The notes under the pieces: generated by a model
Database searches by the model: none
Told to the model about the DNA's origin: nothing
What the model saw: only the letters and a program-made list of their open reading frames with translations
Translations under genes and position numbers: made by a program
NCBI GenBank assembly: GCA_964387845.1
Contig: CAYLXA010000005.1
Location: 140,955-204,954, forward strand
Length of the DNA stretch: 64,000 bases
Direction: 5' to 3'
From: an uncultured bacterium
GTDB taxonomy: Bacteria; Omnitrophota; Omnitrophia; Omnitrophales; Abzuiibacteriaceae
Shown here: positions 14,709-40,168 of the stretch, piece after piece
Position numbering within the stretch: position 1 is the stretch's first letter
How the letters are laid out: every line of letters starts with the position of its first letter

Positions 14709-16427
14709 ATGAGCAAGATCACAAGCCGCGGCGTCGGAGTCGGTTTAAGAAAAGAGCACTACCCATCGATTCTTGAAAAATGGCCGCCCATGGATTGGTT
14801 TGAGGCCATTTCCGAGAATTACATGGATACGGGCGGCCGGCCGCTTGCTGCTTTGGAAAAAGTTCGTGCGCATTATCCCGTCGCGCTTCACGGTACTTCG
14901 ATGTCGCTTGGCTCTACCGATCCTTTCCATCCCGATTATTTGCCCCGTCTGAAAAAATTAATCGATCGCATCGATCCTTTTATTGTTTCGGACCACCTTT
15001 GCTGGTCCGGCGTCGACAAAAACCACCTTTACGACTTACTGCCGCTTCCGTTTACCGAAGAGGCCATCCGGCACTTGGTTTCGCGCATTCAGCAGGTCCA
15101 GGAATATTTGGGGCGCTCCATCCTGATTGAAAATGTTTCGACTTACATCACTTTCAAGAACTCCGAAATCAGCGAATGGGAATTTATTTCCGAAATTTCA
15201 AAGCGTTCAGGATGCGGCATTCTGCTTGATCTCAACAACATTTATGTCAATTCCGTTAATCACCATTTTGACCCTTTCGACTATATTCAAAACATTCCAA
15301 CCGAAGCCGTCGGTCAGTTTCATTTGGCGGGGCACACGGATATGGGAAAATATTTATTTGATACACACAGCGGTGCCGTGATTGACCGGGTTTGGGATCT
15401 GTACCGGAAAGCACTTGAGCGATTCGGACAAGTTTCAACCTTAATCGAGTGGGACGCCGAAATCCCGAGTTTCGAGAAGTTATCCGAAGAAGCCGCGAAA
15501 GCGCGGAATGTTTACAAAGAGTTTCCAGCCGTTGTTGCGAGGCATGAACCAAGCGGCGCCGAAGCAATCTCTGAATCGCAGATTGCTTCGACATCAACTT
15601 TGGAAACATCTCGCAATGACCGCAAAATTTTACTTTCCGAAATTCAAAAAAAATTCAGGCCCCGAATCCAGCCAAAGCGCCAGGCATTTGATCCTGCCGG
15701 CGAAGTTTTGAATCCCCAGGGCGGCGATCCGGGCGAAGTGCGCCTTGATGTTTACTCAAACGGTTATGTTGCGAGGTTCCAGGAGTCGCTCTCAGAAGTG
15801 TTCGAAGCTGTACACGCAGTCTTGGGCGATAGCGCATTCTATGATTTGGCGAGCGAATACACATTTCATTATCCGTCGATGCATTACAATTTAAATTTAG
15901 TCGGCTGTCATTTTCCGGATTTTTTAAAAACGCACCCGCTTTCAAAAAAAGTTCCTTTTTTGGCTGATTTGGCGCAGCTCGAGTGGCAAATTTCAGCGGC
16001 TTTTCATGCCTACGATATCGAGCCGATCAATCCGGCGCAGCTTGCGTCGATTCCGGCGGAGGAGTGGGAAGATCTGAGGGTGACTTTTCAGCCGTCGGTT
16101 TCGCTGCTTTCGTCGACATGGCCCGTGCTCGATATTTGGCTGAAACGGCATGAGCGCGCAGAGCGAGTCAATATCGACTTAGAAAACAGGCCTCAACATG
16201 TATTAATCGGGCGCCGCGAACTTCAAGTCCGGTGCGAATTTTTGGATTCACTCCAGTTTCACTTAATCAAAGGACTTTTAAACGGCCAAACGCTGGGCGA
16301 GGTATGCGGTGAGTTGGCGGATTTGGTTGAGGATGAAACCGAAATTCCCATAACCGATTGGTTTCAGCGCTGGGTCCGGGATCAAATGATTGTTCGCTGC
16401 GAATCTGCACGTCAAGCATCTTTGTAA
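14709..16427 (+). CDS. fused DUF692 (multinuclear non-heme-iron oxidase, MbnB/BufB-like) and DUF2063 (MbnC/BufC-like partner) protein
   Basis: aa 1-280: GVGLRKEHY...DWFEAISENYM...ALHGTSMSLGSTDP...FIVSDHLCWSG...ILIENVSTYI...GCGILLDLNNIYVNSVNH...FHLAGH (DUF692 TIM barrel); aa 330-572: VYSNGYVARFQESL...SAFYDLASEYTFHYPSMHYNLN...FLADLAQLEWQISAAFHA (DUF2063); single continuous frame. Confidence 0.85.
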   Translation: MSKITSRGVGVGLRKEHYPSILEKWPPMDWFEAISENYMDTGGRPLAALEKVRAHYPVALHGTSMSLGSTDPFHPDYLPRLKKLIDRIDPFIVSDHLCWSGVDKNHLYDLLPLPFTEEAIRHLVSRIQQVQEYLGRSILIENVSTYITFKNSEISEWEFISEISKRSGCGILLDLNNIYVNSVNHHFDPFDYIQNIPTEAVGQFHLAGHTDMGKYLFDTHSGAVIDRVWDLYRKALERFGQVSTLIEWDAEIPSFEKLSEEAAKARNVYKEFPAVVARHEPSGAEAISESQIASTSTLETSRNDRKILLSEIQKKFRPRIQPKRQAFDPAGEVLNPQGGDPGEVRLDVYSNGYVARFQESLSEVFEAVHAVLGDSAFYDLASEYTFHYPSMHYNLNLVGCHFPDFLKTHPLSKKVPFLADLAQLEWQISAAFHAYDIEPINPAQLASIPAEEWEDLRVTFQPSVSLLSSTWPVLDIWLKRHERAERVNIDLENRPQHVLIGRRELQVRCEFLDSLQFHLIKGLLNGQTLGEVCGELADLVEDETEIPITDWFQRWVRDQMIVRCESARQASL

Positions 16428-20390: not shown

Positions 20391-20401
20391 AGGAGGCCTC
20401 C

Positions 20402-20638: not shown

Positions 20639-20642
20639 AATC

Positions 20643-20984
20643 ATGAAAATCGAAAAGTTTCATATCTACTTAACCGATCTTAATCCGCAAATCGGGACCG
20701 AGCCCGGAAAAATCAGGCCGGTCACCGTGATTCAAACCAACCTGTTAAACAATACCCATCCCAGCACGATTATTTGCCCGATGACGACCAAAGTGGTCAG
20801 GCAGGCAAGGATTTTAAGGGTTCATGTTTCTTCTGCTGAATCGGGACTGAACACAGCTTCTGATATCCTGGTAGATCAAATTCGGGCTATTGATAATCGG
20901 CGGCTTAGGAAACATATTGGAAAGCTGACCTCCCCGCAGGCGAAAGAGCTTCTGGCCAATCTTAAACTTTTAATCTTAGAATAA
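20643..20984 (+). CDS. MazF/PemK-family endoribonuclease toxin
   Basis: IYLTDLNPQIGTEPGKIRPVTVIQTNLLNN...IICPMTTK matches the PemK/MazF core. Confidence 0.75.
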   Translation: MKIEKFHIYLTDLNPQIGTEPGKIRPVTVIQTNLLNNTHPSTIICPMTTKVVRQARILRVHVSSAESGLNTASDILVDQIRAIDNRRLRKHIGKLTSPQAKELLANLKLLILE

Positions 20985-21034
20985 TCATTCCGTTTTGGTA
21001 TAATATGGTTGTTTTTAACTGTTAAAGACCGCTT

Positions 21035-22978: not shown

Positions 22979-23075
22979 TAAGTGGTAAGTGGTAAGTTTG
23001 GATGAACCAGTCAAACTTGATTAAAATTTTATTTTTACTTATCACTTACAACTTACAACTTACAACTTAAAACTG
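22967..23075. repeat. hairpin element, GTAAGT(G/A) class
   Basis: agtggtaagtgataagtggtaagtggtaag ... cttatcacttacaacttacaacttacaacttaaaactgg; covers the last 4 codons of hemDE and ends 7 nt before hemY. Confidence 0.75.
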
Positions 23076-23081
23076 GAAAAT

Positions 23082-24524
23082 ATGCCTAAAATCGCGATTA
23101 TCGGCGGCGGAATATCAGGGCTTTCCTGCGCGTACCGTTTGCTCGAACTTGCAAAAGAATTCGGAAAAGAGCTTGAAGTCCGGATTTTTGAACGTGGTGA
23201 CCGGTTGGGCGGTACGATCGAGACTGAAATCCGCGATGGTTTTGTTCTGGAGAAAGGCCCTGATTCTTTTATCTCCGAAAAACCAGCCGCGGTCGAGCTT
23301 GCAAAAAAACTTCGCATTGAAAACTTCCTGATCAATACCCGGAGCGAAAACCGGAAAAGTTTTATCCTGAAAAACGGAAAACTTTTTCCCGTTCCGCCCG
23401 GTTTTTATTTAATCGCACCCACGCAGGCATTGGAGTTTATGAAGTCTCCGCTCTTGTCATTTCCCGCCCGGTGCCGCGCCATGGCGGAGATTTTTATTCC
23501 AAAGCGCGTCAGCGAAAATGACGAAAGCATCGGTTCGTTTGTCCGCAGGCGGTTCGGCGATGAAATGCTTGAACGGATCGGACAGCCGATGATCGGCGGA
23601 ATTTACACCGGCGATCCGGACCGCTTAAGTCTTCTGTCCACCATGCCGAGATTTCGTGATTTGGAAAAAAAATCCGGAAGCGTGATTAAAGGAATGTTGG
23701 CCGCAATGTCGCGAACAGAAACCGGTGTTTCAGAAGCGAGCGGCCCGCGTTACAGTTTGTTTTTGTCGTTTAAAAACGGAATGGAAACTCTGGTCAGCTC
23801 GCTCATGAGCCAGATTCCGTACAATTTTGTGCAGTTTGAATCCAAGCTGACCGAGATTGATTACAGTTTTGAAAAACAGGCGTGGTTTGTTGAAATGCAA
23901 AACGGGGAGGTGTATGAAGCAGATGCAGTTTGTGTGGCGGCATCGGCTCGGACGGCTGCGCAGCTTTTTGCGAATTCTTTTCCCGATTTGTCGCGCAAGC
24001 TCAACCGGATCCGGTTTGAATCCGTGGCGACCATCAATTTTGCATTCAAACGGGACCAAATCCGTCATCTGCTCGATGGATTCGGTTTTGTCGTACCCAA
24101 AATCGAGAAAAGGCCTCTTGTGGCCTGTTCCTTCAGTTCTCAGAAGTTTGAAGGCCGCGCACCCAATGACTGCGTTTTGCTTCGGGCGTTTACGGGCGGC
24201 GCGTTCGGGCGCGAATATTATCAAATGGAAGATAAAGATCTGATTAGCGCGGTTGCCCGTGATTTGGCAGAACTGCTCGGTATTCAAGGGGATGCGCTCT
24301 TTTATGATTTGGCCCGGTATCCAAATGCGATGGTTCAGTATGAAGTAGGGCATCTTGAGTTGGTCGGATCGATTCAATCAGATATCAACGAGATGAAGGG
24401 ACTTTTTCTAACCGGTTCTTCATTCAAAGGGGTCGGAATTCCGGACTGTATTGCGGATGCTTTTAAGCAGGCGGAAGCCATGTTTGCGCTTTTGAGCCAG
24501 AAATGCGAAAGCATCAAGTCTTGA
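23082..24524 (+). CDS. hemY: protoporphyrinogen/coproporphyrinogen oxidase (HemY family)
   Basis: IAIIGGGISGLSCAYRL FAD-binding Rossmann fold, amine oxidase fold throughout, 480 aa. Confidence 0.8.
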   Translation: MPKIAIIGGGISGLSCAYRLLELAKEFGKELEVRIFERGDRLGGTIETEIRDGFVLEKGPDSFISEKPAAVELAKKLRIENFLINTRSENRKSFILKNGKLFPVPPGFYLIAPTQALEFMKSPLLSFPARCRAMAEIFIPKRVSENDESIGSFVRRRFGDEMLERIGQPMIGGIYTGDPDRLSLLSTMPRFRDLEKKSGSVIKGMLAAMSRTETGVSEASGPRYSLFLSFKNGMETLVSSLMSQIPYNFVQFESKLTEIDYSFEKQAWFVEMQNGEVYEADAVCVAASARTAAQLFANSFPDLSRKLNRIRFESVATINFAFKRDQIRHLLDGFGFVVPKIEKRPLVACSFSSQKFEGRAPNDCVLLRAFTGGAFGREYYQMEDKDLISAVARDLAELLGIQGDALFYDLARYPNAMVQYEVGHLELVGSIQSDINEMKGLFLTGSSFKGVGIPDCIADAFKQAEAMFALLSQKCESIKS

Positions 24525-24564
24525 TTCGGGTGATATAATAATTGCCTCAAAATTTGGAGTTACC

Positions 24565-25662
24565 ATGAACCACAAACATCTGATTTTGACAGGCCTCGTA
24601 GCGAGCTTGCTGTTTTCTCCCGCCGTTTTTGCGGCAGAATCGGCTTCAGCGCCGTCAATCCAAGCGAATCCAAGTTCGGAAGCTAAAATTCCCCAAGCGC
24701 TCGGAATCGGTTTCGAAGCATACCGGAAAGCGTTGGACGATCTTTTCTTTTTGTCGCTAAAAACCAATCAAAATGCCGATTTCGGTATCAACGAAATCAT
24801 CGTCGGGCTCAACGAAAAAATCAAAACTAATCCCAAGGACCAGGAATCGCTGGCTTATCTGGGCCACATTTACCGGATTTTAAACCAACCGCGCGAAGCC
24901 AACCGGTTTTACCAAAAAGCGCTTGCGCTTGGGGCAGACAAATTCCAGCTCAACTCATTTTCGGGCGTCATGCTGCTCCAGCTTCAGGATTTTGAAAAAT
25001 CCATGGAAGCGCTCAGTCATTCGTTGGAGCTAAACCCGAACGACAGCGACATCTGGGTTCTCTACGGCCGTGCGCTTTTGTATTTGCAGGATTTTGACAA
25101 TGCAATCTTGAGTTATGAAAAAGCGTTTAGCCTGGCTCCGCAGAGCGAAGAAGCCGCGCTTGCGCTTGTCACCATTTATGAACGCCAGAAAAAATACGAT
25201 GAAGCAGTACGCGTGCTTGAGAATTTCCTGAAAGCGGTTCCGGACCATAAGATGGCGCAATTTCATCTCGGCGTTGTTCATTTGTCTCAGAAGCAGCCCG
25301 AGCGCGCCGTTCAGGATTGGGAAACGCTTTATTATGCCGGCGTCCGCGAGCCGCAATTTTTGCTTAATTTGTCGGTTGCCTATCTGGAAGCGGGTGAGTC
25401 GGCAAAATCTCAGAAAATTTTGGAACATCTCCAGTTTTTCTTTCCGAGAAACACCGATCTTTTATTTCTAACGGCGGAAGCAAACCGTCAAATGAACCGC
25501 CTGGACGACTCGGCACGAAATTATCGAAAAGCAATTGCAGAAGACCCGTCTTTCATGAGCGCCCATATCGGTTTGGCGCAGGTTTTGAAGGAAATGGGGA
25601 AGGACAAGGAAAGCCAGAAAATCCTACAGAAAACAGCGGAGCGTTTTCGCGACGAGTCATAA
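24565..25662 (+). CDS. TPR-repeat protein with signal peptide
   Basis: N-terminal signal, multiple 34-aa TPR-like repeats (YQKALALGAD, YEKAFSLAPQ, YRKAIAEDPS). Confidence 0.7.
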   Translation: MNHKHLILTGLVASLLFSPAVFAAESASAPSIQANPSSEAKIPQALGIGFEAYRKALDDLFFLSLKTNQNADFGINEIIVGLNEKIKTNPKDQESLAYLGHIYRILNQPREANRFYQKALALGADKFQLNSFSGVMLLQLQDFEKSMEALSHSLELNPNDSDIWVLYGRALLYLQDFDNAILSYEKAFSLAPQSEEAALALVTIYERQKKYDEAVRVLENFLKAVPDHKMAQFHLGVVHLSQKQPERAVQDWETLYYAGVREPQFLLNLSVAYLEAGESAKSQKILEHLQFFFPRNTDLLFLTAEANRQMNRLDDSARNYRKAIAEDPSFMSAHIGLAQVLKEMGKDKESQKILQKTAERFRDES

Positions 25663-25680
25663 AGTCAGGAGAGTTTTCTC

Positions 25681-26076
25681 ATGGCCATGATCGGTTACAA
25701 AGAAGAACCCGAGAAGCGTAAATTTCCCAGAACCAAAAAACAGTTCATCATCCGCTATCGCGCGTTTAAAGGTGCCGAATATGAAGGCGGATGGAGCCCG
25801 GCAACCACCCAGGATATTAGCGAGGAGGGCTGTTATTTCACTGCAACCGCGCCTTTTGAAAAAGAAGCCCACATCGAAATATTGATGAAAATTCCGGCAT
25901 CACGCGACGATCTTAGGTTTGTTGCCGAAGTTCGGCATTGCACCCAGCTATCGGCTAGAGCGATGGAGGTTTACGGGATCGGCGTCCAGTTTCAGCGCGT
26001 GGGTTCTTCGAATTTATCGATGGCGGTTTTGAAGTCTTACCTGGACAAAGTTATTCCTGCCAAAAACTCAGCGTGA
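25681..26076 (+). CDS. PilZ-domain protein
   Basis: [12 protein letters not shown]...DISEEG: RxxxR and DxSxxG c-di-GMP-binding motifs. Confidence 0.6.
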
Positions 26077-26997
26077 CGATTCGTTCGGCACGATTTTTTG
26101 CAATTCCTGCGGCAATTTTGCTTCAAATACTTTTTTTTCCTTCGTGACCGGGTGTTCCATGGTCAGCCGAAAAGCATGAAGCGCCAGGCGTCCGGCCGGA
26201 TTGGTTTTAGCGCCGTATTTTTCATCACCGACAATCGGGTGCCCCAAGTCAGCCAAGTGAACGCGGATCTGGTTTTTCCGGCCTGTTTCGAGCGTGACTT
26301 CCAAAAGCGCCCGTTCGCGGTTTGACTTCACCGTTTGATATTTTGTGACTGAAAATTTGGAAGCCGGATTCGGCCGTCCGGAAAAAACACGTTGAAATTT
26401 GTCTTCGCTTAGAAAGCTTTTGATCGTTCCGAATTTCCTTTTCGGACATCCTTCCACAATCGCGTAATATTTTTTATCAATCGATTTCCAATTTTCCTGA
26501 AGCCATTCTCGGATTTTTTCGGATTTTGCGAACAATAAAATTCCGGATGCGTTCCGGTCCAGCCGGTGCGCAATCACGGCGCGCGTTTTTCCGGAAGAAT
26601 CGCGGCGTTTCAGAAATTCGTTCAACTGATGATCGGCCGTCTGTGTTTTGATTTTGTCTGTCGCGACGCTCAGGAGCCCGGAAGGCTTGTTGATGACGAG
26701 GATCGAATCGTCTTCGTAAATAATTTCTAATTTTGAGGCGATTTTTTTGGCATGATGAAATTCCGGTTTCGACGACGATTCGGTGACGCTGATTTTATCG
26801 CCGGGTGAAACTTCCCAGTTGTAGCGTGTATTGACCTGACCGTTGACGGAAATCTGCCCGCGTTCCAAGAGTTTCTTTAGCTTGCTCCGGGAATAACCTG
26901 CTGCATGGGTAGTTAAATATTCTAAAAGCTTTCCGGATGAGCGGACGGCAACGGTAAACATGACGTGCATCATAGTGGATTTAAAGGGAACGGTCAA
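26068..26997 (-). CDS. RluA-family 23S rRNA pseudouridine synthase (S4 domain plus catalytic domain)
   Basis: [16 protein letters not shown] catalytic Asp motif; N-terminal S4 RNA-binding domain. Confidence 0.8.
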
Positions 26998-27061
26998 TTT
27001 GCCTTATGGCTTGGTTTTGATTCATGTGTTAAAATACTTCTGTTCGCATCTTGAGGGATTT

Positions 27062-27874
27062 ATGAAGAAAAGTTTTGTTTTAGTCATCCTATTATCTGCA
27101 TGTTTGATTTCACCTGTCCTCTTTGCCGATGATGAAAACCCCGTCCGAGCCGAGTTGATCTCCGAAGTTAAATCAGTTCAGCCCGGGCATCCGTTTTGGG
27201 TTGCGATCCATTTTAAAATGGATGAAGGCTGGCATACTTATTGGAAAAACCCGGGCGAAGTCGGGCTTCCCAACAAAGTGAAGTGGGATTTACCCGAAGG
27301 ATTCGAAGCCGGGAAACTCAAATGGCCTTATCCGGAAAAGATCATGGAAGGCGACATTGCCGCATTTGCTTACGAGGGCGAGGTGCTTTTGCTTAGCGAA
27401 ATCAAAACACCGGCTTCGATTGAGGGCCCGGAAGTGACGCTTAAAGCAGAAGTCGGTTGGTTGGCTTGCAAAGAAATTTGCTTGCCGGGAGAGGCAAGCG
27501 TGACGCTTTCACTTCCGGTTACCGCTGAAACACCCGAAGCAGACGAGCGCAATAAAGACCTATTCTCTGTAACCCGCTCGCATTTGCCTGTAACGGAGCC
27601 TGCTTGGGGTGTGAAAGTCGAAAGCAGTTGGGGTAAATTCAAGCTGCAATTTGCCGCGCTTGCGCAGCTGGAGAGTGCCGAATTTTTCCCGATCGAGAAA
27701 CGAGTCGTTGAGCTTAGCGCTAATCAGGATTTCAAAAAAACAAAAGAAGGTTATGAGTTAATGTTGGTGCGCGCAAAAGATTTTGATAAATCAATCAAAC
27801 AATTTCAGGGCGTTTTGGTGGTCCGGGGCATTGGAGCGGATGCGAAGGCGATCTGGGTTGACGTTAACCTTTAA
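27062..27874 (+). CDS. DsbD N-terminal-domain-like periplasmic thiol-disulfide protein
   Basis: Signal peptide MKKSFVLVILLSACLISPVLFA; HPFWVAIHFKMDEGWHTYWKNPGE...LACKEICLPGE resembles the DsbD-alpha/DsbC-like disulfide reductase domain; track ORF start 26960 is an in-frame upstream extension. Confidence 0.55.
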   Translation: MKKSFVLVILLSACLISPVLFADDENPVRAELISEVKSVQPGHPFWVAIHFKMDEGWHTYWKNPGEVGLPNKVKWDLPEGFEAGKLKWPYPEKIMEGDIAAFAYEGEVLLLSEIKTPASIEGPEVTLKAEVGWLACKEICLPGEASVTLSLPVTAETPEADERNKDLFSVTRSHLPVTEPAWGVKVESSWGKFKLQFAALAQLESAEFFPIEKRVVELSANQDFKKTKEGYELMLVRAKDFDKSIKQFQGVLVVRGIGADAKAIWVDVNL

Positions 27875-27941
27875 CTCCGGGGCCCATGTCTCGGAGCAAT
27901 AACCGGATTGAAACTCGAGGTTTCGATTCATTGGAGGAATT

Positions 27942-28547
27942 ATGAAAAAGTTATTTTGGGTTCTTTTGCTGGCATTGTGCGCGGGATTTTCAGCCCATTT
28001 GTTTGCGGCTGCGGAAGTCGGCCAGCCGGCTCCGGATTTTTCACTGACGGATTCATCGGGCACAACGCATACGCTGTCGGAACATAAAGGAAAGTTTGTC
28101 GTGCTGGAATGGGTCAATTACGACTGCCCGTTTGTCAAAAAACATTACAGTGTCGGCAATATGCAAAATTTACAGAAAGAATTCACCGGAAAAGGCGCTG
28201 TGTGGTTCTCGATCAATTCTTCTGCGCCCGGCAAGCAGGGCAATTTCTCAGCCGAAGAAATTAATCAAAAAATCGCAGAGAGCGGCGCTGCCCCTTCGGC
28301 TTATTTAATGGATCAAACAGGCGATACGGGAAGAGCTTATGGCGCTAAAACAACGCCGCATATGTTTGTTGTGGATCCGCAAGGTGTTTTGATTTACAAA
28401 GGCGGCATTGATGATAAGCCGTCAACCGATTCGGCGGATATCGCGGGCTCCAAAAATTATGTTTCCGCGGCGCTGAATGAAGCCATGGCAGGGAATGCCG
28501 TGACCAATGCGAGCACCGATTCGTACGGCTGTTCCGTGAAGTATTAA
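27942..28547 (+). CDS. secreted redoxin (AhpC/TSA or TlpA-like thioredoxin fold)
   Basis: Signal peptide; APDFSLTDSSGTTHTLSEHKGKFVVLEWVNYDCPFVKKHY has a single active-site Cys. Confidence 0.6.
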   Translation: MKKLFWVLLLALCAGFSAHLFAAAEVGQPAPDFSLTDSSGTTHTLSEHKGKFVVLEWVNYDCPFVKKHYSVGNMQNLQKEFTGKGAVWFSINSSAPGKQGNFSAEEINQKIAESGAAPSAYLMDQTGDTGRAYGAKTTPHMFVVDPQGVLIYKGGIDDKPSTDSADIAGSKNYVSAALNEAMAGNAVTNASTDSYGCSVKY

Positions 28548-28812
28548 AGCAAAACCATCATTGCGAGCCGCATTGTTTGTTGGCGAAGCAATCTCAGCTC
28601 GATTTATTTCTCTCCGCTTTCTTGCGCGCGATGATTTTTAGCCGATCGGGCTAAACAAAAATCATCGTGCTCAGCCCATTCAGAAAGATTGAGCCATTCA
28701 ATCTTTCCTCATGATGGCGCTCCGAGAAACAATTTGAGCTTCGATGTTTATAAAAGCTTCCTGAAGGGCGAAATGTTTTGTTAATACAAATTTAACATGG
28801 TACTTTTAAAGG

Positions 28813-29667
28813 GTGCTTGAGCAAAAATACAAAAACGTGATTACAGCTTATTTGGATACTAGTGTTTACAATAAAATCTTAAATTCGGACGCAAATGAAA
28901 TCGAACGGTTAATCGAGAGTTGTGTTCGAGAAAAGAAAGTAATTATCAGGGCCTCGCTTTTGAATGCTCAAGAAATATTGTTGGCAGATGCAGAAAGTAA
29001 AAGAAAACTTTTCTCGCTTGCAAGAAAAATAACCCATAATCTTGTTTATGAAGAAACCCGTAATATTTTGAAGTTGGATTTTGATAGTTTTTTAAGAATT
29101 AAGACACAACATCAAAATATATATTCCACAGCTAATTGGTACTCATTTTTAGAGAAAGGAACCGCTGGTAATTTTGATCAAATGTATGGCGATATTAAGA
29201 AAGATAGCTCATATCATCAATACAAACCTGTATTCTTAAGCGAAATCAAAGAAGCTTGTGAGAAGGCAGATAAATTTTCTGATCGAAATTTAAGATTCTC
29301 GAAAGTAAAATTGCTATCACAAAAATCAGATATACAATTTTTGTCTGGTCTTTTACGGTTATTTTACCCAGCAGAATATATTTCGGATTTGGTCAAATTG
29401 ATTGATCTAAGAAAAATGCCACGATTGCGCTACGTGGTAAAATTTTTGTTACATACCATGGAACTGCATCTAACTGGCGGATTAAAACCAAAGTGGGGAG
29501 ATAATACCGATATGCAGCATGTTATATACGCTTCTGATAATAAATATTTTGTTACCGCCGACAAAAATTTTTTATCTCTCTTGCAGGGAATTAGTAACGA
29601 AGATACTAAATTTTTAATGTATGATGATTTCGCCAAAGAAATCAGTAGTCAATCTAAGTGGTTCTAA
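28813..29667 (+). CDS. hypothetical protein in AT-rich island, possible divergent PIN-like fold
   Basis: N-term ITAYLDTSVYNKIL and C-term HVIYASDNKYFVTADKNF resemble first and last PIN strands; GC content is far below the flanks; GTG start. Confidence 0.4.
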   Translation: MLEQKYKNVITAYLDTSVYNKILNSDANEIERLIESCVREKKVIIRASLLNAQEILLADAESKRKLFSLARKITHNLVYEETRNILKLDFDSFLRIKTQHQNIYSTANWYSFLEKGTAGNFDQMYGDIKKDSSYHQYKPVFLSEIKEACEKADKFSDRNLRFSKVKLLSQKSDIQFLSGLLRLFYPAEYISDLVKLIDLRKMPRLRYVVKFLLHTMELHLTGGLKPKWGDNTDMQHVIYASDNKYFVTADKNFLSLLQGISNEDTKFLMYDDFAKEISSQSKWF

Positions 29668-29721
29668 GAATATAAAAATAGGGTAGAAAGCTACAGTCGC
29701 TTTTTTTTGTAGACCGCTATA

Positions 29722-30093
29722 ATGTTAAATAATCTACAGCTCAAACTCATTTTCTCTAAAACCAAAGGCCATTGTCATTTTTGTGGCGACAAACTACGGT
29801 TTGATCGATACGGAAACCGAAGCGCAAAATCCTTAGATGGTATGTGGGAATTGGATCATATAATTCAGAGGGGCAAAGGCGGAAAGGATGAAATTAATAA
29901 TTTTCTTCCGGCTTGCGCACGTTGTAATCAGCTCAGATGGCATCGCAAGGGAAAGCAGCTTCGAGAATTGATTTTCTTAGGTTTAATAGCAAAAGTAGAA
30001 ATTAAAAAACATTCGCCTACAGGTAAACAAATTCTCTTGCTTAGGAAGAAGCGAATAGCTTCCAACCAAAAGCGCAGACGACTTTTTTTATAG
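29722..30093 (+). CDS. HNH endonuclease
   Basis: HCHFCGDKL...WELDHIIQRGKGGKDEINNFLPACARCN: HNH with two CxxC zinc knuckles. Confidence 0.8.
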   Translation: MLNNLQLKLIFSKTKGHCHFCGDKLRFDRYGNRSAKSLDGMWELDHIIQRGKGGKDEINNFLPACARCNQLRWHRKGKQLRELIFLGLIAKVEIKKHSPTGKQILLLRKKRIASNQKRRRLFL

Positions 30094-30314
30094 AGAAGGA
30101 AGAATCTCCTGTTGCGGGAGCGGCGTCGAGAGAACGAGCGTCAGACCGACGCGAGTGAACGAGCCGCAGTGAGTAAGGATGATTCTGCTTTGGCAGGCCG
30201 CCAAGAATCATCCGACGGAGCGTAGCGAAGCAATAGGAGATTCTGACCTTGAGCGTAGATTGCTTCAGCACCAAATAATGCGCTTTCCTCCATAAAGCAT
30301 GGCGGACAAGCGCA

Positions 30315-31154
30315 ATGACGAAATTTTTTATGTTTACTATTAAAGCACCGGATTTTAATTTAGAGGCGACTCTGGAATCCGGACAGGTGTTCGGGTTCCA
30401 GAAATCACCGGATGGATTTTACGAGGGCACGATTGACGGCAGAGAGGTCCGGTTGCGTCAAGATTTAAACTTTCTTCAGGTTCAAAATCATTCGCAAAAA
30501 AGCACGGAGCCAAAAGTCCGGCACTTTTTTGATTTAGATCGCGATTTAAATCCTGTTTACGAAATTTTGAACAAAGAAGAACCCCTCGCCAAAATCCTCC
30601 AAAAATTTCGAGGGCTTCGCCTGATCCGGCAAAATTCATGGGAAGCGCTTGCATGCTTTATCATTTCTTCCAACAACAATGTGAAGCGCATTCAGGGAAT
30701 TTGGAAAAACCTGACATCACGTTTGAGTGCAGACGGTTTTTCGTTTCCGAAGCCGTTTGAAATTGCTAAGAGCCATGAGCGGATGCTGAGAGAACTTGGG
30801 CTTGGCTACCGTGCACCGTTTTTATTTCGTTCCGCACAATTTTTGGCGCACAATCCCGTAAGTCTTGATCTCATTCGTGAAGCGGAATATTCGGAAGCAC
30901 GCCACAGGCTGCTTCAATTTCCCGGCATCGGCCCCAAAGTCGCGGATTGCGCGCTCCTGTACGGATTTCAAAAATATGAAGCGTTTCCTGTTGATGTTTG
31001 GATTTTGCGTGTGATGCGGAAATTATACTTCCGAAATCGGAAGGTTTCGGAAGAAAAAATTCACGGTTTTGGCCAAAAGCGCTGGGGAAATCTTGCGGGC
31101 TATGTGCAGCAATATTTATTTCACGGTGCCCGCAGCGGTCTTTTTGATCTTTAA
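30315..31154 (+). CDS. ogg: 8-oxoguanine DNA glycosylase / HhH-GPD family N-glycosylase-lyase
   Basis: Hh[23 protein letters not shown] with catalytic Lys/Asp arrangement of Ogg-type enzymes. Confidence 0.7.
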
Positions 31155-32824
31155 CCGGTAATGGCGCCCTTCGATGAAGAGGAAACAAGCTTCGCGTATT
31201 TTGCCATGACGCCCATTTTGTAACGGGGTTTCGGTTCTTTCCATTTGCGAAGCCGCGCGTCGATTTCTTTCTTAGACAGTTTCACATCCAACCGGCGTTT
31301 TTTGGTATCGATCACGATCGTATCGCCGTTTTTCAAAGCGGCGATGGGCCCGCAAACCGCCGCTTCCGGCGCGACGTGGCCGATCATGAGGCCGTGCGTG
31401 GCACCCGAAAACCTTCCGTCTGTGAGAAGCGCGACAGATTCACCGAGTCCTTCACCGACAATGGCAGCAGTGACGCTGAGCATTTCACGCATGCCGGGGC
31501 CGCCTTTGGGGCCTTCGTAACGGATCACAATCACGTCGCCGGATTTGATTTTTCGGTCTTTTACCGCTTGAAAGGCATCTTCTTCACATTCAAACACTTT
31601 CGCCGGGCCTTCATGAAAAGCCCGAGTCTTTTCGGACATTTTCACAACGCAGCCTTCGGGCGCGAGATTGCCTTTTAAAATCACAAGGCCGCCCGTGGGT
31701 TTCAGGGGATTTGAAAGCGGACGGACGACTTCTTGATTTTTGATTTCAACGGCTTTGGATGCTTCATCACCGATAGTTTTTCCGGTCACCGTTAAACAAT
31801 CTTTGTGGAGTATCTTTGCTTCAAGCAGGCGCTTGGCAATCAACGGAATGCCGCCGACATTGTAAAGATCATTGGCCACGAACTTTCCGCTCGGTTTCAA
31901 ATCGGCGAGCAGGGGAGTTTTGGCGCTGATTTTATCGAAATCTTCAATTTTTAACGGAATTCCGGCTTCATAGGCCACGGCTAACAAATGTAAAACACCG
32001 TTTGTAGAGCCGCCGGTTGTTGCAACTGCCGCAATAGCGTTCTCGATCGATTGGCGAGTGATAATTTTGTTTGGCCGAATATCTTTTTTCAAAAGTTCCA
32101 TGACCATATGGCCGCACTGGCGCGCGATTTCAAACTTCTTAGGATCCAAAGCCGGAATGCTGTTGGCGCCCATCGGCGAAATGCCCATGACTTCGAACGC
32201 GGTCGACATCGTGTTGGCCGTGAATTGTCCGCCGCAAGCGCCGGCGCCGGGGCAGGCCTCGTCTTCTAAGTCATGCACTTCCTCCGGTGTCATTTTTCCG
32301 GCCGCGCATTTTCCGACGGCTTCGAAAACGTCTTGAATGGTGACGTCCTTACCTTTGAATTTTCCGGGTGCGATCGAGCCGCCATAGAGCATTAATGAAG
32401 GCACATTTAAACGGATGAGTGCCATCACAGTTCCCGGAATGGTTTTGTCGCATCCCGAAAGCGCAATCACGGCGTCTAATAAATGCGAGCGCGCGGCAAG
32501 TTCAATGGAGTCGGCGACCACTTCGCGGCTCACGAGAGAGCCTTTCATGCCCTCGGTGCCCATAGTGATGCCGTCTGAAACGGAGATGGTATTGAATTCG
32601 ATCGGTGTTCCGCCGGCTTCGCGAATCCCTTGGCGTACTTTCTCGGCTAGATCGCGCAGATGGAAATTGCACGGCATGACTTCGATCCAGGTATTGGCGA
32701 TACCGATTAACGGCTTATCGAGATCCTCGTCTTTGAGGCCGATGGCCTTGAGCATGGCGCGCGCCGGAGCACGGTCAGTGCCGTCGGTTAAGAATTTGCT
32801 GCGGTGTTTCAAGGGTGATGACAT
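31151..32824 (-). CDS. ilvD: dihydroxy-acid dehydratase
   Basis: 557 aa; [29 protein letters not shown]..., CDKTIPG and CPGAGACGG Fe-S ligand motifs. Confidence 0.95.
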
Positions 32825-32935
32825 GAATTCCTCCGGTCGATAATCTTTAAAAGCGTCAATATAATCCCAGTTTCAGAAAAAGAAAACAGTTTTTTTATGC
32901 GTCCCAATTATGATAAATTGAGCGGGTTTTGACTC

Positions 32936-33010
32936 GGGCCCTTAGCTCAACCTGGTTAGAGCAGGGCGCTCATAACGCCTTGGTTGGAGGTTCAAATCCT
33001 CCAGGGCCCA
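32936..33010 (+). tRNA. tRNA-Met (CAT anticodon; could be the Ile2 lysidine type)
   Basis: GGGCCCT acceptor paired with AGGGCCC, D arm GCTC/GAGC, anticodon loop CTCATAA, T arm GGAGGTTCAAATCCTCC; G1-C72 pair so not an initiator. Confidence 0.85.
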
Positions 33011-33149
33011 TTCTGCGTCGCTGCGTCCTTTGCGGCGCAGCTATGCAGAATTGAAAAGTCGGAGGATTTGAAGGGAGCCCCGCATGACGCGAGGAAAGCC
33101 GAGCGTCAAGCTTGCGGGGCTTCGAAGAACAAGTTCTACTACAAAAAAT

Positions 33150-33527
33150 ATGAAACTAAATTTTTGGACTTTGCTCATGCTTTTGACAATCACCGGCTGC
33201 TCGCATCCGCCGGTTCAGACTGCTGTGTGGCACCGAAGCATCTCGGGTGTTATCAGCGAAGTGAACCGGGATGATTATCGTTTTGTCTTGTTAAGTGAAG
33301 ATGCTGTGAGCGGAGTCACAAGCGTTTTTCAATTGAAGCCGGATACCGGTACGCGATTTCAAAACGCCGTGGGTTTCCGTGATTTAGGAAAAGGCGATTC
33401 AGTTTCGGTCGATTTTACGCAAAATGCAAAGGGCGAGTTTGTTCCTAGCCGGGTTATTTTAACCAAGAAAGCAGTGGAAGACGAATCAAGCCAGGCGGAA
33501 AGCAAAGGATACGCGCTTCTCGAATGA
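33150..33527 (+). CDS. lipoprotein (hypothetical)
   Basis: MKLNFWTLLMLLTITGCSHP lipobox; the track ORF starts further upstream at 33084. Confidence 0.5.
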   Translation: MKLNFWTLLMLLTITGCSHPPVQTAVWHRSISGVISEVNRDDYRFVLLSEDAVSGVTSVFQLKPDTGTRFQNAVGFRDLGKGDSVSVDFTQNAKGEFVPSRVILTKKAVEDESSQAESKGYALLE

Positions 33528-33546
33528 TGAAACAAATGGGTGCAGC

Positions 33547-34701
33547 TTGAAAATTTTACGGACTTATTGCCTCAAAGAATTGGTGACACCTTTTTTGCTC
33601 TCACTTTCTCTTTTCGGCTTTGTGTTTATTGTCGGTAATTTGGTGAAGCTTGCGGATTTGCTCGTCAACCGCGGCGTCAGCATTGTTGATATTATCAAAA
33701 TCCTGCTTCTCTTGATTCCGGAACTCATCGGATTTATTTTGCCGACCGCAGCGCTGGCGTCGGTGCTTTTGGTTTTCGGCGGATTTGCGCAGAATAATGA
33801 AATTACGGCAATGAAGGCAAGCGGGGTCAATATTTTCCGCGTGATGATCCCAATCATGACCATCGCACTGATCATGAGCATCGGCGCTTTGTTTTTGATC
33901 GATCAGCTCCAGCCCCGCGCTAAATTTACTTCGCGCATGATCATCAATGAGATGTTGACCAAAAAACCGACGGCTTATATCGAATCTGGGCGCTTCATCA
34001 AGGATTTCAAAGGTTACATTCTGCGTGTCCGTAATGTGAAAGGAAATCAGTTGGAGGGCGTTACGATTTTCCAGATGCGTGAAGGCGGGCCGACGCGGAC
34101 CATCATGGCCGAGCGGGGCGAGCTGGTGACGTCGGATGACGGCGAGCACAACACAGTCGGGCTTCAGCTTTATAACGGAACCAGCGATGAACCAAATCCG
34201 GATGATCCGACGGTGGTTTATAAATTAAATTTTGATACTTTCTTTCTGCCCGCGATTAACGTGACGGACAATGCGTCTCAGAAGTCAAAGCGCAAAATCA
34301 AAGAAATGACGCTCGATGAACTCATTTTGATTTTACGCAATATGCGGGATTATAAAGAAGAGATGCGGGAGCAGGGAAAAGCAGAAGATGAAATTGCAAC
34401 CGAAACCCAGGAGTTGACATTAAGAGCAAAGGCCGAAATTCACAAGAAAATCGCATTTTCCCTTGCCACTTTTTGTTTTGTCATGGTCGGACTTCCGCTT
34501 GCAATCGTCACGCGGCGCGGCGAAGCCGTCGTCAGCTTTGGTTTGTCGATGGCTGTCGTGGCGATCTACTATATTTTGTTTATTTGGGGAGGCACGCTCG
34601 CGGTAAACGGTTATCTGCCTGCTTATATCGCGCTTTGGATTCCCAACGTGGTTGCGATTCTGGCATCAACCTTCTTCATGGCGAAGATTGTGCGGTTATA
34701 G
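33547..34701 (+). CDS. LptF/LptG-family LPS export permease
   Basis: YjgP/YjgQ topology: 3 N-terminal TM helices, periplasmic beta-jellyroll domain, 3 C-terminal TM helices; ILRTYCLKELVTPFLLSL start. Confidence 0.8.
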   Translation: MKILRTYCLKELVTPFLLSLSLFGFVFIVGNLVKLADLLVNRGVSIVDIIKILLLLIPELIGFILPTAALASVLLVFGGFAQNNEITAMKASGVNIFRVMIPIMTIALIMSIGALFLIDQLQPRAKFTSRMIINEMLTKKPTAYIESGRFIKDFKGYILRVRNVKGNQLEGVTIFQMREGGPTRTIMAERGELVTSDDGEHNTVGLQLYNGTSDEPNPDDPTVVYKLNFDTFFLPAINVTDNASQKSKRKIKEMTLDELILILRNMRDYKEEMREQGKAEDEIATETQELTLRAKAEIHKKIAFSLATFCFVMVGLPLAIVTRRGEAVVSFGLSMAVVAIYYILFIWGGTLAVNGYLPAYIALWIPNVVAILASTFFMAKIVRL

Positions 34702-34744
34702 CTCTTTTGTGTTATACTCTTTCGGTTCTTTGAGAAAGGCTTTT

Positions 34745-35172
34745 CTCGGTAGATGATCGCCTGCTGCATTTTGCAGTGGGAGGAAAGTCCGAACTTCACA
34801 GGGCAAGGCGCCCCGTAATACGGGGTGGGGCGGGAGCAAATCCCGCTTTAAGGAAAGTGCCACAGAGATTATACATCCGAAGTGGTAAGTGATAAGTGGT
34901 AGGTGGTAAATAGTAAATAAAGGAGTTATTGGCTTCTCATCAACTTAGCACTTACAACTTATCACTTACTACTGGATAAAGGTGAAACGGTGGCGTAAGA
35001 GACCACCGTGTATCGGCGTAAGCTGGTATGCAAGGTAAACCCCGCCTGAAGAAAGATGAAGATCGCGCAAGTTGACTTGTTCAGCTCAGGGCGGCCCGTT
35101 CTGCGCGCGTCTAACAAGATCGAATGACCCGAGGTTGCAAAATCCGGGCTAGACAGATGATCATCGCTTCTT
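34745..35172 (+). ncRNA. rnpB: RNase P RNA (bacterial type A)
   Basis: GGAGGAAAGTCCGAAC...ACAGGGCA (P4 region), AGGAAAGTGCCACAGAG (P10/P11), GGTGAAACGGTGGCGTAAGAGACCACC (P13/P14), CAAGGTAAACCCCGCCTGAAG, ...GGGCTAGACAGATGATCATCGC 3' end; ends approximate. Confidence 0.8.
34881..34973. repeat. GTAAGT-class hairpin embedded in RNase P RNA (forms the P12 helix)
   Basis: agtggtaagtgataagtggtaggtggtaaatagtaaataaagg ... caacttagcacttacaacttatcacttactact, lying between the AGGAAAGTGCCACAGAG and GGTGAAACGGTGGCG conserved blocks. Confidence 0.7.
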
Positions 35173-35173
35173 C

Positions 35174-35258
35174 AGTTGTAAGTGATAAGTGATAAGTGGT
35201 AAGTTGTAAGTTTTAAGAATTCATAAACTTATCACTTAAAACTTACCACTTACAACTG
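35174..35258. repeat. GTAAGT-class hairpin element with CCAGTTGTAAGT...ACTTACAACTGG termini
   Basis: cagttgtaagtgataagtgataagtggtaagttgtaag-ttttaagaattcataa-acttatcacttaaaacttaccacttacaactgg, directly 3' of rnpB. Confidence 0.75.
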
Positions 35259-35305
35259 GGGAAGAAACAGAATTCGGCTTATGCCGAGAAAAGCCTCTCT
35301 TTTTT

Positions 35306-35390
35306 AGTTTTAAGTGATAAGCGTTAAGGGATAAGTTAAAAACTGCATATTTTTGTTTTTCTTACCTCTTACAACTTATCACTTACCACC
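35306..35390. repeat. GTAAGT-class hairpin element (degenerate)
   Basis: agttttaagtgataagcgttaagggataagtt ... cttacctcttacaacttatcacttaccacc. Confidence 0.6.
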
Positions 35391-40152: not shown

Positions 40153-40168
40153 CGACCGGAGATTGTTC

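What the first reader, a model, noticed from the sequence alone, without database searches (positions are those of the whole stretch)
28550..30260. AT-rich two-gene island (PIN-like 284-aa protein plus HNH nuclease) flanked by structured repeats: candidate defence or mobile cassette
Seen in sequence: a sharp drop in GC across about 28800-30100 relative to both flanks. Gene 1 (GTG start) has DTSV and FVTADKNF motifs at its two ends, reminiscent of a PIN fold split by a large insertion. Gene 2 is a clear HNH endonuclease with two CxxC knuckles. Upstream are two hairpins (28620-28670, 28690-28720). Downstream is a 145-nt block with nested inverted repeats (AGAATCTCCTGTTGC ... GCAATAGGAGATTCT enclosing GGATGATTCT...AGAATCATCC). 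The compositional anomaly plus a nuclease pair is typical of horizontally acquired anti-phage or abortive-infection modules.
Basis: partly seen in the sequence, partly recalled or inferred. Interest (0 to 1): 0.5.

Follow-up and report, generated by a model that had tools for sequence, protein, structure and literature searches.

The report
Two foreign nuclease genes in a palindrome
A 1.65-kb AT-rich stretch carrying two unrelated, solitary nuclease genes (an unclassified PIN-like enzyme and a widespread mini HNH endonuclease) appears to sit inside a split palindromic repeat between two housekeeping genes; it looks like ordinary horizontally acquired accessory DNA and not a recognisable two-gene defence system.

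Summary

The interpretation as a two-gene defence module is not supported. Gene 1 has no PADLOC hit and the HNH gets only weak generic ones. In other genomes neither gene has the other as a neighbour. Gene 1 belongs to a sparse, uncharacterised family of solitary genes, remotely related to DUF4935/PIN_12. The HNH belongs to a large, highly conserved family of solitary mini-genes of about 123 aa. These sit between host genes and keep GC3 near 0.36 even in hosts at 0.8.

One new observation: the cassette is bracketed by 32-nt inverted arms. Joined together, the arms rebuild a nested palindromic element that has an intact copy at 15.5 kb. The DNA therefore appears to sit in the apex of a host palindromic repeat. 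The mechanism of arrival and the function remain inferred.

The parts
28557..28600 (+). Left half of the split palindromic element (PE). Outer arm TCATTGCGAG at 28558-28567; inner 32-nt arm at 28569-28600, which contains GAAGCAATCT.
   Evidence: The arm is 26/32 identical to the reverse complement of 30251-30282, and 0 of 1000 shuffles reach that score. GAAGCAATCT occurs 4 times in the window against 0.15 expected. CTCGCAATGA occurs exactly only here and in E1.
28623..28673 (+). Hairpin A, just inside the left arm
   Evidence: Arms are 17 nt and 88% complementary. MFE is -26.6 kcal/mol. GC is host-like at 0.46.
28683..28707 (+). Hairpin B (GAAAGATTGA / TCAATCTTTC)
   Evidence: 10-bp perfect stem, -11 kcal/mol.
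28813..29667 (+). Gene 1: PIN-like nuclease of 284 aa, or 276 aa from the GTG at 28837. The core is split by an all-helical insert of about 155 aa (residues about 74-228).
   Evidence: - D15, T16, S48, E54, D233 and D250 are invariant or at least 90% conserved in 63 family members.
- The AF2 model has pLDDT 89.1.
- 10 of 63 relatives give sub-threshold hits to PF16289 PIN_12.
- GC3 is 0.298, the lowest of 47 ORFs.
29688..29713 (+). Upstream copy of a direct repeat of about 27 nt that brackets the HNH gene (marginal significance)
   Evidence: Local alignment with 30069-30094 scores 21, against a shuffle mean of 13 and maximum of 22. The Logan contig L002 ends exactly at 29713.
29722..30093 (+). 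Gene 2: solitary mini HNH endonuclease of 123 aa, with a zinc-knuckle ββα-Me core and a conserved basic C-terminal tail
   Evidence: - PF01844 at E = 2e-8.
- Invariant GHCHFCGD, WE.DH, N60, C65..C68-N69, H74 and N115-R118-R119 in 16 relatives.
- More than 300 homologues at 52-66% identity, all 119-145 aa.
- The closest solved structures are McrA 6ghc and the Geobacter HNH 4h9d.
30101..30244 (+). 145-nt GC-rich structured block: an outer 15-nt stem enclosing two hairpins. It contains a second GCGAAGCAAT at 30225-30234.
   Evidence: - MFE is -70.6 kcal/mol, z = -6.0. The minus strand folds at -61.5.
- GC is 0.569.
- No Rfam match at E <= 1.
- It is unique in the window and in all fetched loci.
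30251..30314 (+). Right half of the split palindromic element. Inner arm at 30251-30282; outer arm GCGCAATGA at 30306-30314, which abuts and overlaps the OGG start codon.
   Evidence: The joined flanks fold into one nested hairpin at -50.6 kcal/mol, z = -6.7.
15525..15625 (+). E1: the intact paralogue of the palindromic element. Outer stem TTGCGAG/CTCGCAA, inner stem CGAAGCAATCT/AGATTGCTTCG, 9-nt loop.
   Evidence: - MFE is -38.7 kcal/mol, z = -4.9.
- It aligns to the joined island flanks with score 34 to 40, against a shuffle maximum of 26.
- The CM built from both finds no further copy in the window.
- It lies in the linker between the MbnB/DUF692 and DUF2063 domains of ORF 14709-16427.

Best explanation
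The region is a patch of horizontally acquired accessory DNA, about 1.65 kb long (28601-30250). It is lodged in the apex of a host palindromic repeat element that originally filled the spacer of about 117 nt between the redoxin and OGG genes. It carries two functionally independent, solitary nuclease genes, not a two-component system.

Gene 1 is a metal-dependent PIN-fold nuclease. By analogy with VapC-group PIN enzymes it is most likely an endoribonuclease. Its D-E-D-D active site is assembled from two sequence segments about 155 residues apart. The intervening helical domain is inferred to act as a built-in regulatory or substrate-selecting module, because no antitoxin gene is present.

Gene 2 is a self-contained ββα-metal HNH DNA endonuclease or nickase with a zinc-knuckle scaffold and a basic DNA-binding tail. 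It belongs to a family that behaves like a selfish or freely transferred mini-gene: it is slotted with junctions of 4-9 nt between host genes in many phyla and keeps its own low GC.

Shown: the composition, the folds, the catalytic residues, the family distributions, the lack of co-occurrence and the split palindrome.

Inferred: horizontal origin, independent arrival of the two genes, the biochemical substrates and any role in conflict or defence.
For: Composition:
- The 29001-30000 bin has the lowest GC of 64 bins.
- The two genes have the lowest GC3 of 47 ORFs.

Gene 1 fold and family:
- The conserved residues form a D-E-D-D tetrad.
- Relatives give sub-threshold PIN_12 and PIN hits.
- The published description of DUF4935 mentions a long helical insert after S2 and mono-cistronic genes (PMC5499597).
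- The family has 248 representatives of 270-300 aa, nearly all unnamed metagenomic sequences.
- There is no upstream ORF that could encode an antitoxin.

No co-occurrence:
- PIN-like relatives have varied neighbours: PD-(D/E)XK, pP_pnuc_1, TPR, Abi_C/DUF5677 and DUF5131. None has an HNH.
- HNH relatives sit next to GmrSD_N, between purQ and purL, in a 4HBT-HNH-YbaK-HhH-GPD operon, or alone. None has a PIN-like gene.

HNH as alien DNA elsewhere:
- In L100 its GC3 is 0.374, against 0.77-0.81 in the adjacent genes.
- Its GC is 10-17 points below the host locus in L098, L100 and L104.

Split palindrome.

No mobility genes lie within about 10 kb upstream or about 5 kb downstream, going by the precomputed Pfam annotation of L001 and L109.
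Against: - No empty site or closely related genome was available. Insertion is therefore inferred from the paralogue E1 and from composition only.
- Only two copies of the palindromic element were seen, so calling it a dispersed host repeat rests on a small sample.
- The same geometry fits an element whose termini are the palindrome arms (see rivals).
- The hairpins and the 145-nt block inside the arms have host-like or higher GC. They could be host sequence and not part of the cassette.
- Only about five PIN-like loci had enough flank to judge neighbours, so a loose functional link with an HNH cannot be strictly excluded.
- No biochemical evidence exists for either family.
Confidence: 0.55

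Rival explanations
1. The palindrome arms are the terminal inverted repeats of a non-autonomous mobile cassette, comparable to a MITE with cargo or a dif-module-like unit. The cassette is moved in trans by an enzyme encoded elsewhere. E1 at 15.5 kb is then the cargo-less 'solo' form, not an unoccupied target.
For: - The geometry is identical to the split-palindrome reading: 32-nt inverted arms bracket the cargo, and E1 equals the two arms back to back.
- No transposase lies in or near the cassette.
- E1 also sits precisely at a gene junction, in the MbnB/DUF2063 linker, as a mobile MITE would.
- A 10-bp direct repeat GCGAAGCAAT at 28583 / 30225 could be a target duplication (47 of 2000 shuffles).
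Against: - There is no direct repeat immediately outside the outer arms of either copy (read directly from the sequence).
- Only two copies occur in 64 kb, and none in 1.24 Mb of other loci.
- The arms have host-like GC while the cargo is AT-rich.
- The arms lack the conserved XerD half-site.
- The cargo genes occur elsewhere without such arms. For example, the HNH sits with 4-9 nt junctions in L098 and L100.
Confidence: 0.2
2. One reading: gene 1 and the HNH form one co-functional anti-phage or abortive-infection system, for example an RNase effector plus a DNase effector or sensor.
For: - The two genes are on the same strand, 54 nt apart, with no predicted terminator between them.
- Both are nucleases in an AT-rich island.
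- Relatives of each sit near defence-type genes: Abi_C, PD-(D/E)XK and pP_pnuc_1 for the PIN-like family, and GmrSD_N and toxin-antitoxin genes for the HNH.
Against: - PADLOC has no model for gene 1 and gives only generic HNH hits of at most 19 bits.
- No co-occurrence was seen in any relative's locus.
- The family sizes are very different: 3 clusters against more than 300 in the indexed database.
- The two genes differ in GC: 0.325 against 0.387.
- In other lineages the HNH is embedded in housekeeping operons.
Confidence: 0.1
3. An IS200/IS605- or OMEGA-like unit. The HNH would be an IshB-type protein, and the 145-nt structured block downstream would be its guide or scaffold RNA, or a transposon-end hairpin.
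For: - The HNH core matches the NCBIfam IscB model over the HNH region (E = 6e-7, 28.9 bits).
- A strongly structured non-coding block starts 8 nt after the stop codon, and the plus strand is slightly favoured (-70.6 against -61.5 kcal/mol).
- Hairpins lie near both ends of the cassette.
Against: - The IscB score is far below the cut-off of 175 bits.
- A P[LIVM]MP motif is found in 0 of 120 family members, and the protein is 123 aa against about 180 for IshB (PMC11610941).
- No Rfam ωRNA or other hit was found.
- No TnpA is nearby.
- In other loci the HNH has 0-69 nt of downstream spacer, so no RNA partner is conserved.
- The left and right hairpins are not significantly similar.
Confidence: 0.03
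4. Native, vertically inherited genes whose low GC reflects weak expression or local mutational bias. On this view the palindromes are ordinary terminators and there was no insertion.
For: The flanking hairpins could serve as terminators for the redoxin and HNH genes. No mobility gene is present. OGG also has lowish GC3 (0.450, fourth lowest).
Against: - The GC3 z-scores are -3.5 and -2.6.
- Gene 1 has only 3 clusters in 5.8 billion proteins, and its relatives are scattered over unrelated contexts.
- The HNH shows the same anomaly in hosts with GC3 of 0.8.
- The 32-nt arms match an intact hairpin elsewhere.
Confidence: 0.07

Closest known systems
DUF4935 / PIN_12 (PF16289) and related unclassified VapC-group PIN-like clusters (Matelska et al. 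2017, PMC5499597)
   Same: Both have a PIN core with four conserved acidic residues and a long helical insert after strand S2. Both are solitary, mono-cistronic genes found in bacteria, with unknown function.
   Different: - Gene 1 itself gives no Pfam hit. Its relatives reach at most 23 bits against a gathering score of 32.
- It is about 280 aa, against about 350 aa.
- It has no separate α/β C-terminal region. Here the insert lies inside the PIN core, and the last two acidic residues follow it.
VapC toxins of type II toxin-antitoxin systems
   Different: Gene 1 is twice the size, with a helical insertion of about 155 aa. There is no VapB-like antitoxin ORF upstream. Sequence similarity is below every curated threshold.
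McrA-type and small stand-alone HNH endonucleases (E. coli McrA HNH domain 6ghc; Geobacter Gmet_0936 4h9d)
   Same: Same ββα-metal HNH core with a CxxC...CxxC zinc site and a DH...N...H motif. JGI annotators name many relatives 'McrA'.
   Different: It lacks the N-terminal modified-cytosine-reading domain of McrA. It has its own conserved 45-aa C-terminal segment ending in N.KRRR. PDB similarity is only E about 1e-3.
Free-standing homing endonuclease genes of phages (for example the T-even mob and seg genes; from my own knowledge)
   Same: A small endonuclease-only gene inserted precisely between conserved host genes, with its own composition.
   Different: No member was found in 50,697 phage records beyond generic HNH similarity, and none in the IMG/VR contigs. 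In the purQ-purL lineage it looks like a long-term resident. No homing site is known.
REP/BIME-type extragenic palindromes as insertion targets (Tobes & Pareja 2006, PMC1525189; title and abstract seen)
   Same: Foreign DNA is found inside a palindromic extragenic repeat that has another intact copy in the same genome.
   Different: - The inserted DNA has no transposase.
- The element is a nested palindrome of about 100 nt.
- Only two copies were seen in 64 kb.
- There is no associated RAYT.

Membership tests
PIN domain-like superfamily (VapC group) | α/β/α PIN fold (Rossmann-like, parallel β-sheet) | tested here: met
PIN domain-like superfamily (VapC group) | Four conserved acidic residues forming the metal site | tested here: met
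   E54 and D233 are invariant, and D15 and D250 are at least 90% conserved, in 63 sequences. Their spatial clustering in the model was not inspected.
Pfam PF16289 PIN_12 (DUF4935) | Score at or above Pfam's gathering threshold (32 bits) | tested here: not met
   Gene 1 gives no hit at E <= 1. The best hit among the ten closest relatives tested individually was 23.3 bits. 10 of 63 members hit at E <= 0.01, the best at 3.2e-6.
Type II toxin-antitoxin VapBC | Adjacent small antitoxin gene (VapB) upstream, in an operon | tested here: not met
   The six-frame translation of 28548-28836 contains no substantial ORF. The ORF listing found no ORF of at least 40 aa there.
HNH endonuclease (PF01844) | ββα-Me motif with catalytic His, Asn and metal-binding His, scoring above the gathering threshold | tested here: met
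   34.6 bits against a cut-off of 21.4. D45-H46, N60/N69 and H74 are invariant.
Known anti-phage defence systems (PADLOC-DB v2) | Significant match of the component proteins to a system model, with all required components co-located | tested here: not met
   Gene 1 has 0 hits. The HNH gets only domain-level hits of at most 19.4 bits to REase_II, mREase_IV, Cas9, NsnC and PtuB, and no partner components are present.
IshB / OMEGA (IS200/IS605 OrfB) | PLMP domain N-terminal to the HNH, and a length of about 180 aa | tested here: not met
   0 of 120 family members have P[LIVM]MP, and the protein is 123 aa. The definition is taken from PMC11610941.
IshB / OMEGA (IS200/IS605 OrfB) | Associated ωRNA and IS200/605 ends or TnpA | tested here: not met
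   There is no Rfam hit at E <= 1 in 27500-31500. The precomputed Pfam annotation of the roughly 16 kb around the cassette (window 18813-35154) shows no Y1 transposase. Other HNH loci have no room for an RNA.
Integron gene cassette | attC with R'' (RYYYAAC) and R' (GTTRRRY) core sites 50-150 nt apart, downstream of the ORF | tested here: not met
   No R''/R' pair was found on either strand in 29660-30320 or 28548-28812. No integrase is nearby.
Xer-dependent dif module | Flanking 28-bp sites with a conserved XerD half-site (TTATGTTAAAT-like), in inverted orientation | tested here: not met
   There is no match with up to 2 mismatches inside either arm. Hits across the window number 30 against 22 expected. 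The dif site of this phylum is unknown, so the test is only as good as the consensus used.
REP/BIME-like dispersed palindromic repeat | Many copies dispersed in intergenic regions of one genome | tested here: inconclusive
   Two copies occur in 64 kb: E1 and the split one. The rest of the genome was not available.

The most novel reading that the evidence does not exclude
The nested palindrome is the recognition structure of a mobility system that needs no cassette-encoded recombinase. A host or distant enzyme would load and unload cargo at the hairpin apex, much as Xer does for dif modules or integrases do for attC. E1 would be the empty form and the island a loaded form. The 145-nt block, whose 3' arm overlaps a second GCGAAGCAAT, would take part in pairing with the target. 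This would be a new type of hairpin-targeted gene cassette in an uncultivated phylum.
Probability: 0.1. Interest if true: 0.65.

Novelty: new member of a known kind. Interest (0 to 1): 0.3.

Why it matters
The finding shows that an attractive 'nuclease pair in an AT-rich island' need not be a defence system. Co-occurrence analysis separates it into two unrelated solitary genes.

Three modest leads remain:
1. A well-defined but unclassified PIN-like family of about 250 representative sequences. The helical insertion of about 155 aa inside the catalytic core may be a built-in regulator that replaces an antitoxin.
2. A very conserved HNH mini-gene of 123 aa that appears as an AT-rich intruder with junctions of 4-9 nt inside housekeeping operons of distant phyla. 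How it spreads is unknown.
3. A nested palindromic element that here encloses foreign DNA at its apex and elsewhere sits in-frame in the linker between two protein domains.

None of these changes current understanding unless followed up experimentally.

Tried and rejected
- Empty-site search. The single genome-contig scan, run with the redoxin, found no close relative (best 62% identity). The DsbD_N-redoxin pair is widely conserved, but OGG is adjacent to the redoxin in only one of the 80 loci (L053, divergent strand), and the other window genes in none. The exact-protein look-up of OGG returned only the same population. The redoxin is not on record.
- Wide alignment A2 for locus scans. It was rejected as too divergent. 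The tight alignment A1 gave 6 short metagenome loci and no viral loci.
- Profile search in the indexed protein database with A2. It returned only 2 new ids.
- PDB profile search with A2. It gave only coiled-coil noise on the insert. Foldseek against the PDB and BFVD gave weak E-values, although VapC and PIN-like entries led the lists. The afdb50 library was unavailable.
- The first structure model, from 3 sequences, was poor (pLDDT 53.7) and was not used.
- A conserved small partner of the HNH. The 67-aa upstream genes in L094 and L098 are unrelated.
- The structured block as a multi-copy repeat. It is unique in the window and in all loci. The Logan contig breaks at 30178 and 30204 flank its inner hairpin, probably because coverage drops at a strong hairpin.
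- Similarity between hairpin A and the block's inner hairpin, as matched transposon ends. Not significant: score 19 against a shuffle mean of 16.3.
- attC core sites, the PLMP motif and the XerD half-site. All absent.
- HNH and glycosylase as a travelling pair. In L100 the glycosylase has host GC3 of 0.81 while the HNH has 0.37.
- Promoter and terminator scan. No excess over shuffles.
- Phage and plasmid collections. Only generic HNH similarity, and nothing for gene 1.
Full report
**1. Observation.**

The window has a mean GC of 0.477. Across about 28720-30050 the GC falls to 0.25-0.40. The 1-kb bin 29001-30000 (0.340) is the lowest of 64 bins; the next lowest is 0.415.

Two plus-strand ORFs fill the trough:
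- Gene 1 is at 28813-29667 (GTG start, 284 aa).
- Gene 2 is at 29722-30093 (123 aa).

Their GC3 values are 0.298 and 0.355. These are the two lowest of 47 ORFs, with z = -3.46 and -2.61.

The flanking genes are housekeeping genes:
- Upstream are DsbD_N and an AhpC/TSA redoxin.
- Downstream are an OGG_N/HhH-GPD glycosylase and ilvD.

The non-coding features are also present:
- The two upstream hairpins are at 28623-28673 and 28683-28707.
- The downstream 145-nt block is at 30101-30244. It folds at -70.6 kcal/mol with z = -6.0.

**2. Gene 1 is a PIN-fold nuclease with a large internal insertion.**

Gene 1 matches nothing in Pfam, PADLOC or PHROGs. In NCBIfam it gives only weak sub-threshold hits, including VapC at E = 0.094 over residues 14-66.

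It is extremely rare in the indexed database: 3 clusters in 5.8 billion proteins. An exhaustive HMMER profile search found more:
- 248 cluster representatives at E <= 1e-3.
- 50 of these at E <= 1e-10.
- Almost all are 270-300 aa and match end to end.

In a 63-sequence alignment, E54 and D233 are invariant. Y13, D15, T16, S48 and D250 are at least 90% conserved. This is the PIN D-E-D-D signature, with about 175 residues between the second and third acidic residues.

Evidence for the fold:
- Ten of the 63 members give sub-threshold hits to PF16289 (PIN_12/DUF4935) and six to PF01850 (PIN). The best hit among the ten closest relatives tested individually was 23.3 bits, against a cut-off of 32.
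- With the 63-sequence alignment, AlphaFold gives pLDDT 89.1 and pTM 0.88.

The model places the elements as follows:
- β1-α-α-β2-α-α at residues 10-73.
- Seven helices at residues 82-222.
- α-β3-α-β4-α at residues 229-281.

There is no upstream ORF that could encode an antitoxin. Family N-termini align to residue 10 of the ORF, so the GTG at 28837 is the more likely start.

**3. Gene 2 is a solitary mini-HNH from a large, conserved family.**

Gene 2 matches PF01844 at E = 2e-8. More than 300 homologues at 52-66% identity were found. All are 119-145 aa, and they include Omnitrophota, Peribacteraceae (CPR) and Anaerolineales.

The following are invariant in 16 relatives:
- GHCHFCGD and WE.DH.
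- N60, C65..C68-N69 and H74.
- A basic tail, N.KRR.

The nearest solved structures are McrA (6ghc, E = 1e-3) and the small Geobacter HNH (4h9d).

The family was not found in phage or plasmid records beyond generic HNH similarity. It was not found in IMG/VR contigs either.

**4. The two genes are not a conserved pair.**

Loci encoding PIN-like relatives have varied neighbours and no HNH gene:
- L084: the gene lies between queA and tgt, with DUF5131 and two unknown genes.
- L086: Abi_C, DUF5677, Bro-N and pRha.
- L003: a PD-(D/E)XK nuclease.
- L088: a pPIWI-associated nuclease.
- L093: a TPR protein.

HNH relatives occur in four kinds of context, never with a PIN-like gene:
- Next to a GmrSD_N restriction gene (L094).
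- Between purQ and purL (L098, L104).
- In a 4HBT-HNH-YbaK-HhH-GPD operon with overlapping stop and start codons (L100-L103).
- Alone (L110).

Comparing L098 with L104 is informative. Homology starts exactly at the HNH ATG and runs into purL. Duplicated fragments of purQ (113 nt) and purL (62 nt) mark later insertions of toxin-antitoxin genes on either side. So purQ-HNH-purL is the older arrangement there.

In every high-GC host the HNH is compositionally alien:
- In L100 its GC3 is 0.374, against 0.77-0.81 for its neighbours.
- Its GC is 10-17 points below the host locus in L098, L100 and L104.

In the AT-rich loci L094 and L110 the HNH is within about 4 GC points of its surroundings.

The glycosylase downstream of the HNH, both in L100 and in this window, is host-like in composition. 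It does not travel with the HNH.

**5. The cassette is enclosed in a split palindromic element.**

The segment 28569-28600 matches the reverse complement of 30251-30282 at 26 of 32 positions. The local score is 34, against a shuffle mean of 16.9 and a maximum of 28 in 1000 shuffles.

Two words tie the flanks to a second element in the window:
- GAAGCAATCT occurs four times in the window, against 0.15 expected. One inverted pair forms a compact hairpin at 15561-15589. The other pair is split by the island.
- The outer word CTCGCAATGA occurs exactly only in these two places.

The element at 15525-15625 (E1) folds as a nested hairpin at -38.7 kcal/mol (z = -4.9). The joined island flanks (28548-28600 plus 30251-30322) fold the same way at -50.6 kcal/mol (z = -6.7). 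The two align with score 34-40, against a shuffle maximum of 26.

A covariance model built from both finds no further copy in the window, and none in 1.24 Mb of loci from other organisms.

The simplest reading is as follows:
- The ancestral redoxin-OGG spacer, about 117 nt long, was one such palindrome.
- About 1.65 kb now sits at its apex.

Two details remain open:
- A second GCGAAGCAAT inside the block (30225-30234) gives a 10-bp direct repeat with 28583-28592. 47 of 2000 shuffles produce one. It also lets the contiguous right side score 66 bits. An insertion with a 10-bp duplication is therefore an alternative to a clean loop insertion.
- The same geometry would arise if the arms were the termini of a mobile unit and E1 its cargo-less form.

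I could not separate these readings without a related genome.

**6. Alternatives tested.**

- Integron cassette: there are no attC core pairs and no integrase nearby.
- IshB/OMEGA:
  - No family member has a PLMP motif (0 of 120), and the protein is 123 aa against about 180.
  - The IscB model scores 28.9 bits against a cut-off of 175.
  - There is no Rfam hit.
  - Other HNH loci have no space for an RNA partner.
- dif module: there is no XerD half-site in the arms.
- Matched terminal hairpins: not significant.

A 27-nt direct repeat brackets the HNH (29688-29713 / 30069-30094). It is of marginal significance. An analogous repeat occurs in L104. One Logan contig ends exactly at 29713, but that position follows a T8 run. 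I leave this unexplained.

**7. Mechanism and verdict.**

I consider the region horizontally acquired accessory DNA carrying two independent nuclease genes (confidence 0.55).

Gene 1 is most likely a metal-dependent endoribonuclease of the VapC type. Its helical insertion may regulate or direct it in place of an antitoxin. This is inferred from the fold, the catalytic residues and the absence of a partner gene.

Gene 2 is an active-site-intact HNH DNA endonuclease that behaves like a selfish or freely transferred mini-gene.

A role in defence or conflict is plausible for either gene, given the neighbours of their relatives. It has not been shown.

Overall this is a new member of known kinds: the PIN-like superfamily, stand-alone HNH endonucleases, and foreign DNA inside palindromic repeats. 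Interest is modest (0.3).

Noticed in passing
window 15525-15625, within ORF 14709-16427: The intact palindromic element E1 lies in-frame inside a 572-aa ORF. It falls exactly in the linker (residues about 273-306) between an MbnB/TglH/ChrH (DUF692) domain (residues 8-268) and a DUF2063 domain (residues 313-406). From my own knowledge these are usually two adjacent genes, so the repeat may have fused them or is translated as a linker.
   Followed up: partly
window 22967-23053, 34881-34973, 35167-35385, 57518-57603, 59851-59973: A different family of intergenic inverted repeats built from GTAAGT/ATAAGT-type hexamer units, with arms of 17-39 nt, recurs at five places. Other palindromes are at 41309-41377 (GTATCT units), 40082-40158 and 61406-61452. 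The genome is rich in structured intergenic repeats.
   Followed up: no
L100-L103 (Anaerolineales), 4001-4369: The HNH mini-gene has GC3 0.374 inside an operon whose other genes have GC3 0.77-0.81. It has a 4-nt gap upstream and a 4-nt overlap downstream. It is a strikingly clean alien insertion in a housekeeping operon, and the same arrangement was seen in contigs from at least four samples or assemblies (L100-L103).
   Followed up: partly
L098 2302-2414 and L104 4383-4445: In two related organisms the purQ-HNH-purL gap has taken up toxin-antitoxin and nuclease genes (HigB, YhcG/DUF1016). Each insertion is accompanied by a duplicated fragment of the neighbouring gene end: 113 nt of the purQ 3' end, or 62 nt of the purL 5' end. 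This marks an insertion hot spot.
   Followed up: partly
L090, L091, L092 (metagenome contigs, GC 0.30-0.34): Three contigs carry the same PIN-like homologue interrupted by an in-frame stop at the same position (148 aa + 140 aa in one frame). This is either a pseudogene or an organism with a reassigned stop codon.
   Followed up: no
window 30315-31154 (OGG) and L100 4866-5744: An OGG/HhH-GPD glycosylase lies zero or one gene downstream of the HNH in two of six independent contexts. The two glycosylases are 28% identical and have host-like GC. This may be coincidence or a target preference of the HNH gene.
   Followed up: partly
window 20402-20984 (from L001 1590-2172): A PemK/MazF-type toxin gene (113 aa) with a 78-aa upstream partner lies about 8 kb upstream of the island, between the DsbD and heme-biosynthesis genes. 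It is another small accessory module in this otherwise housekeeping region.
   Followed up: no
window 47349-57515: A single ORF of 3388 aa whose only Pfam match is an enoyl-CoA hydratase domain near residue 2000. It is otherwise unannotated.
   Followed up: no
window 29722-30093 / L001 10910-11278: The window's own HNH protein is absent from the 5.8-billion-protein database (the best hit is 66% identical). No gene was called for it on the Logan contig, although the ORF is complete there.
   Followed up: no
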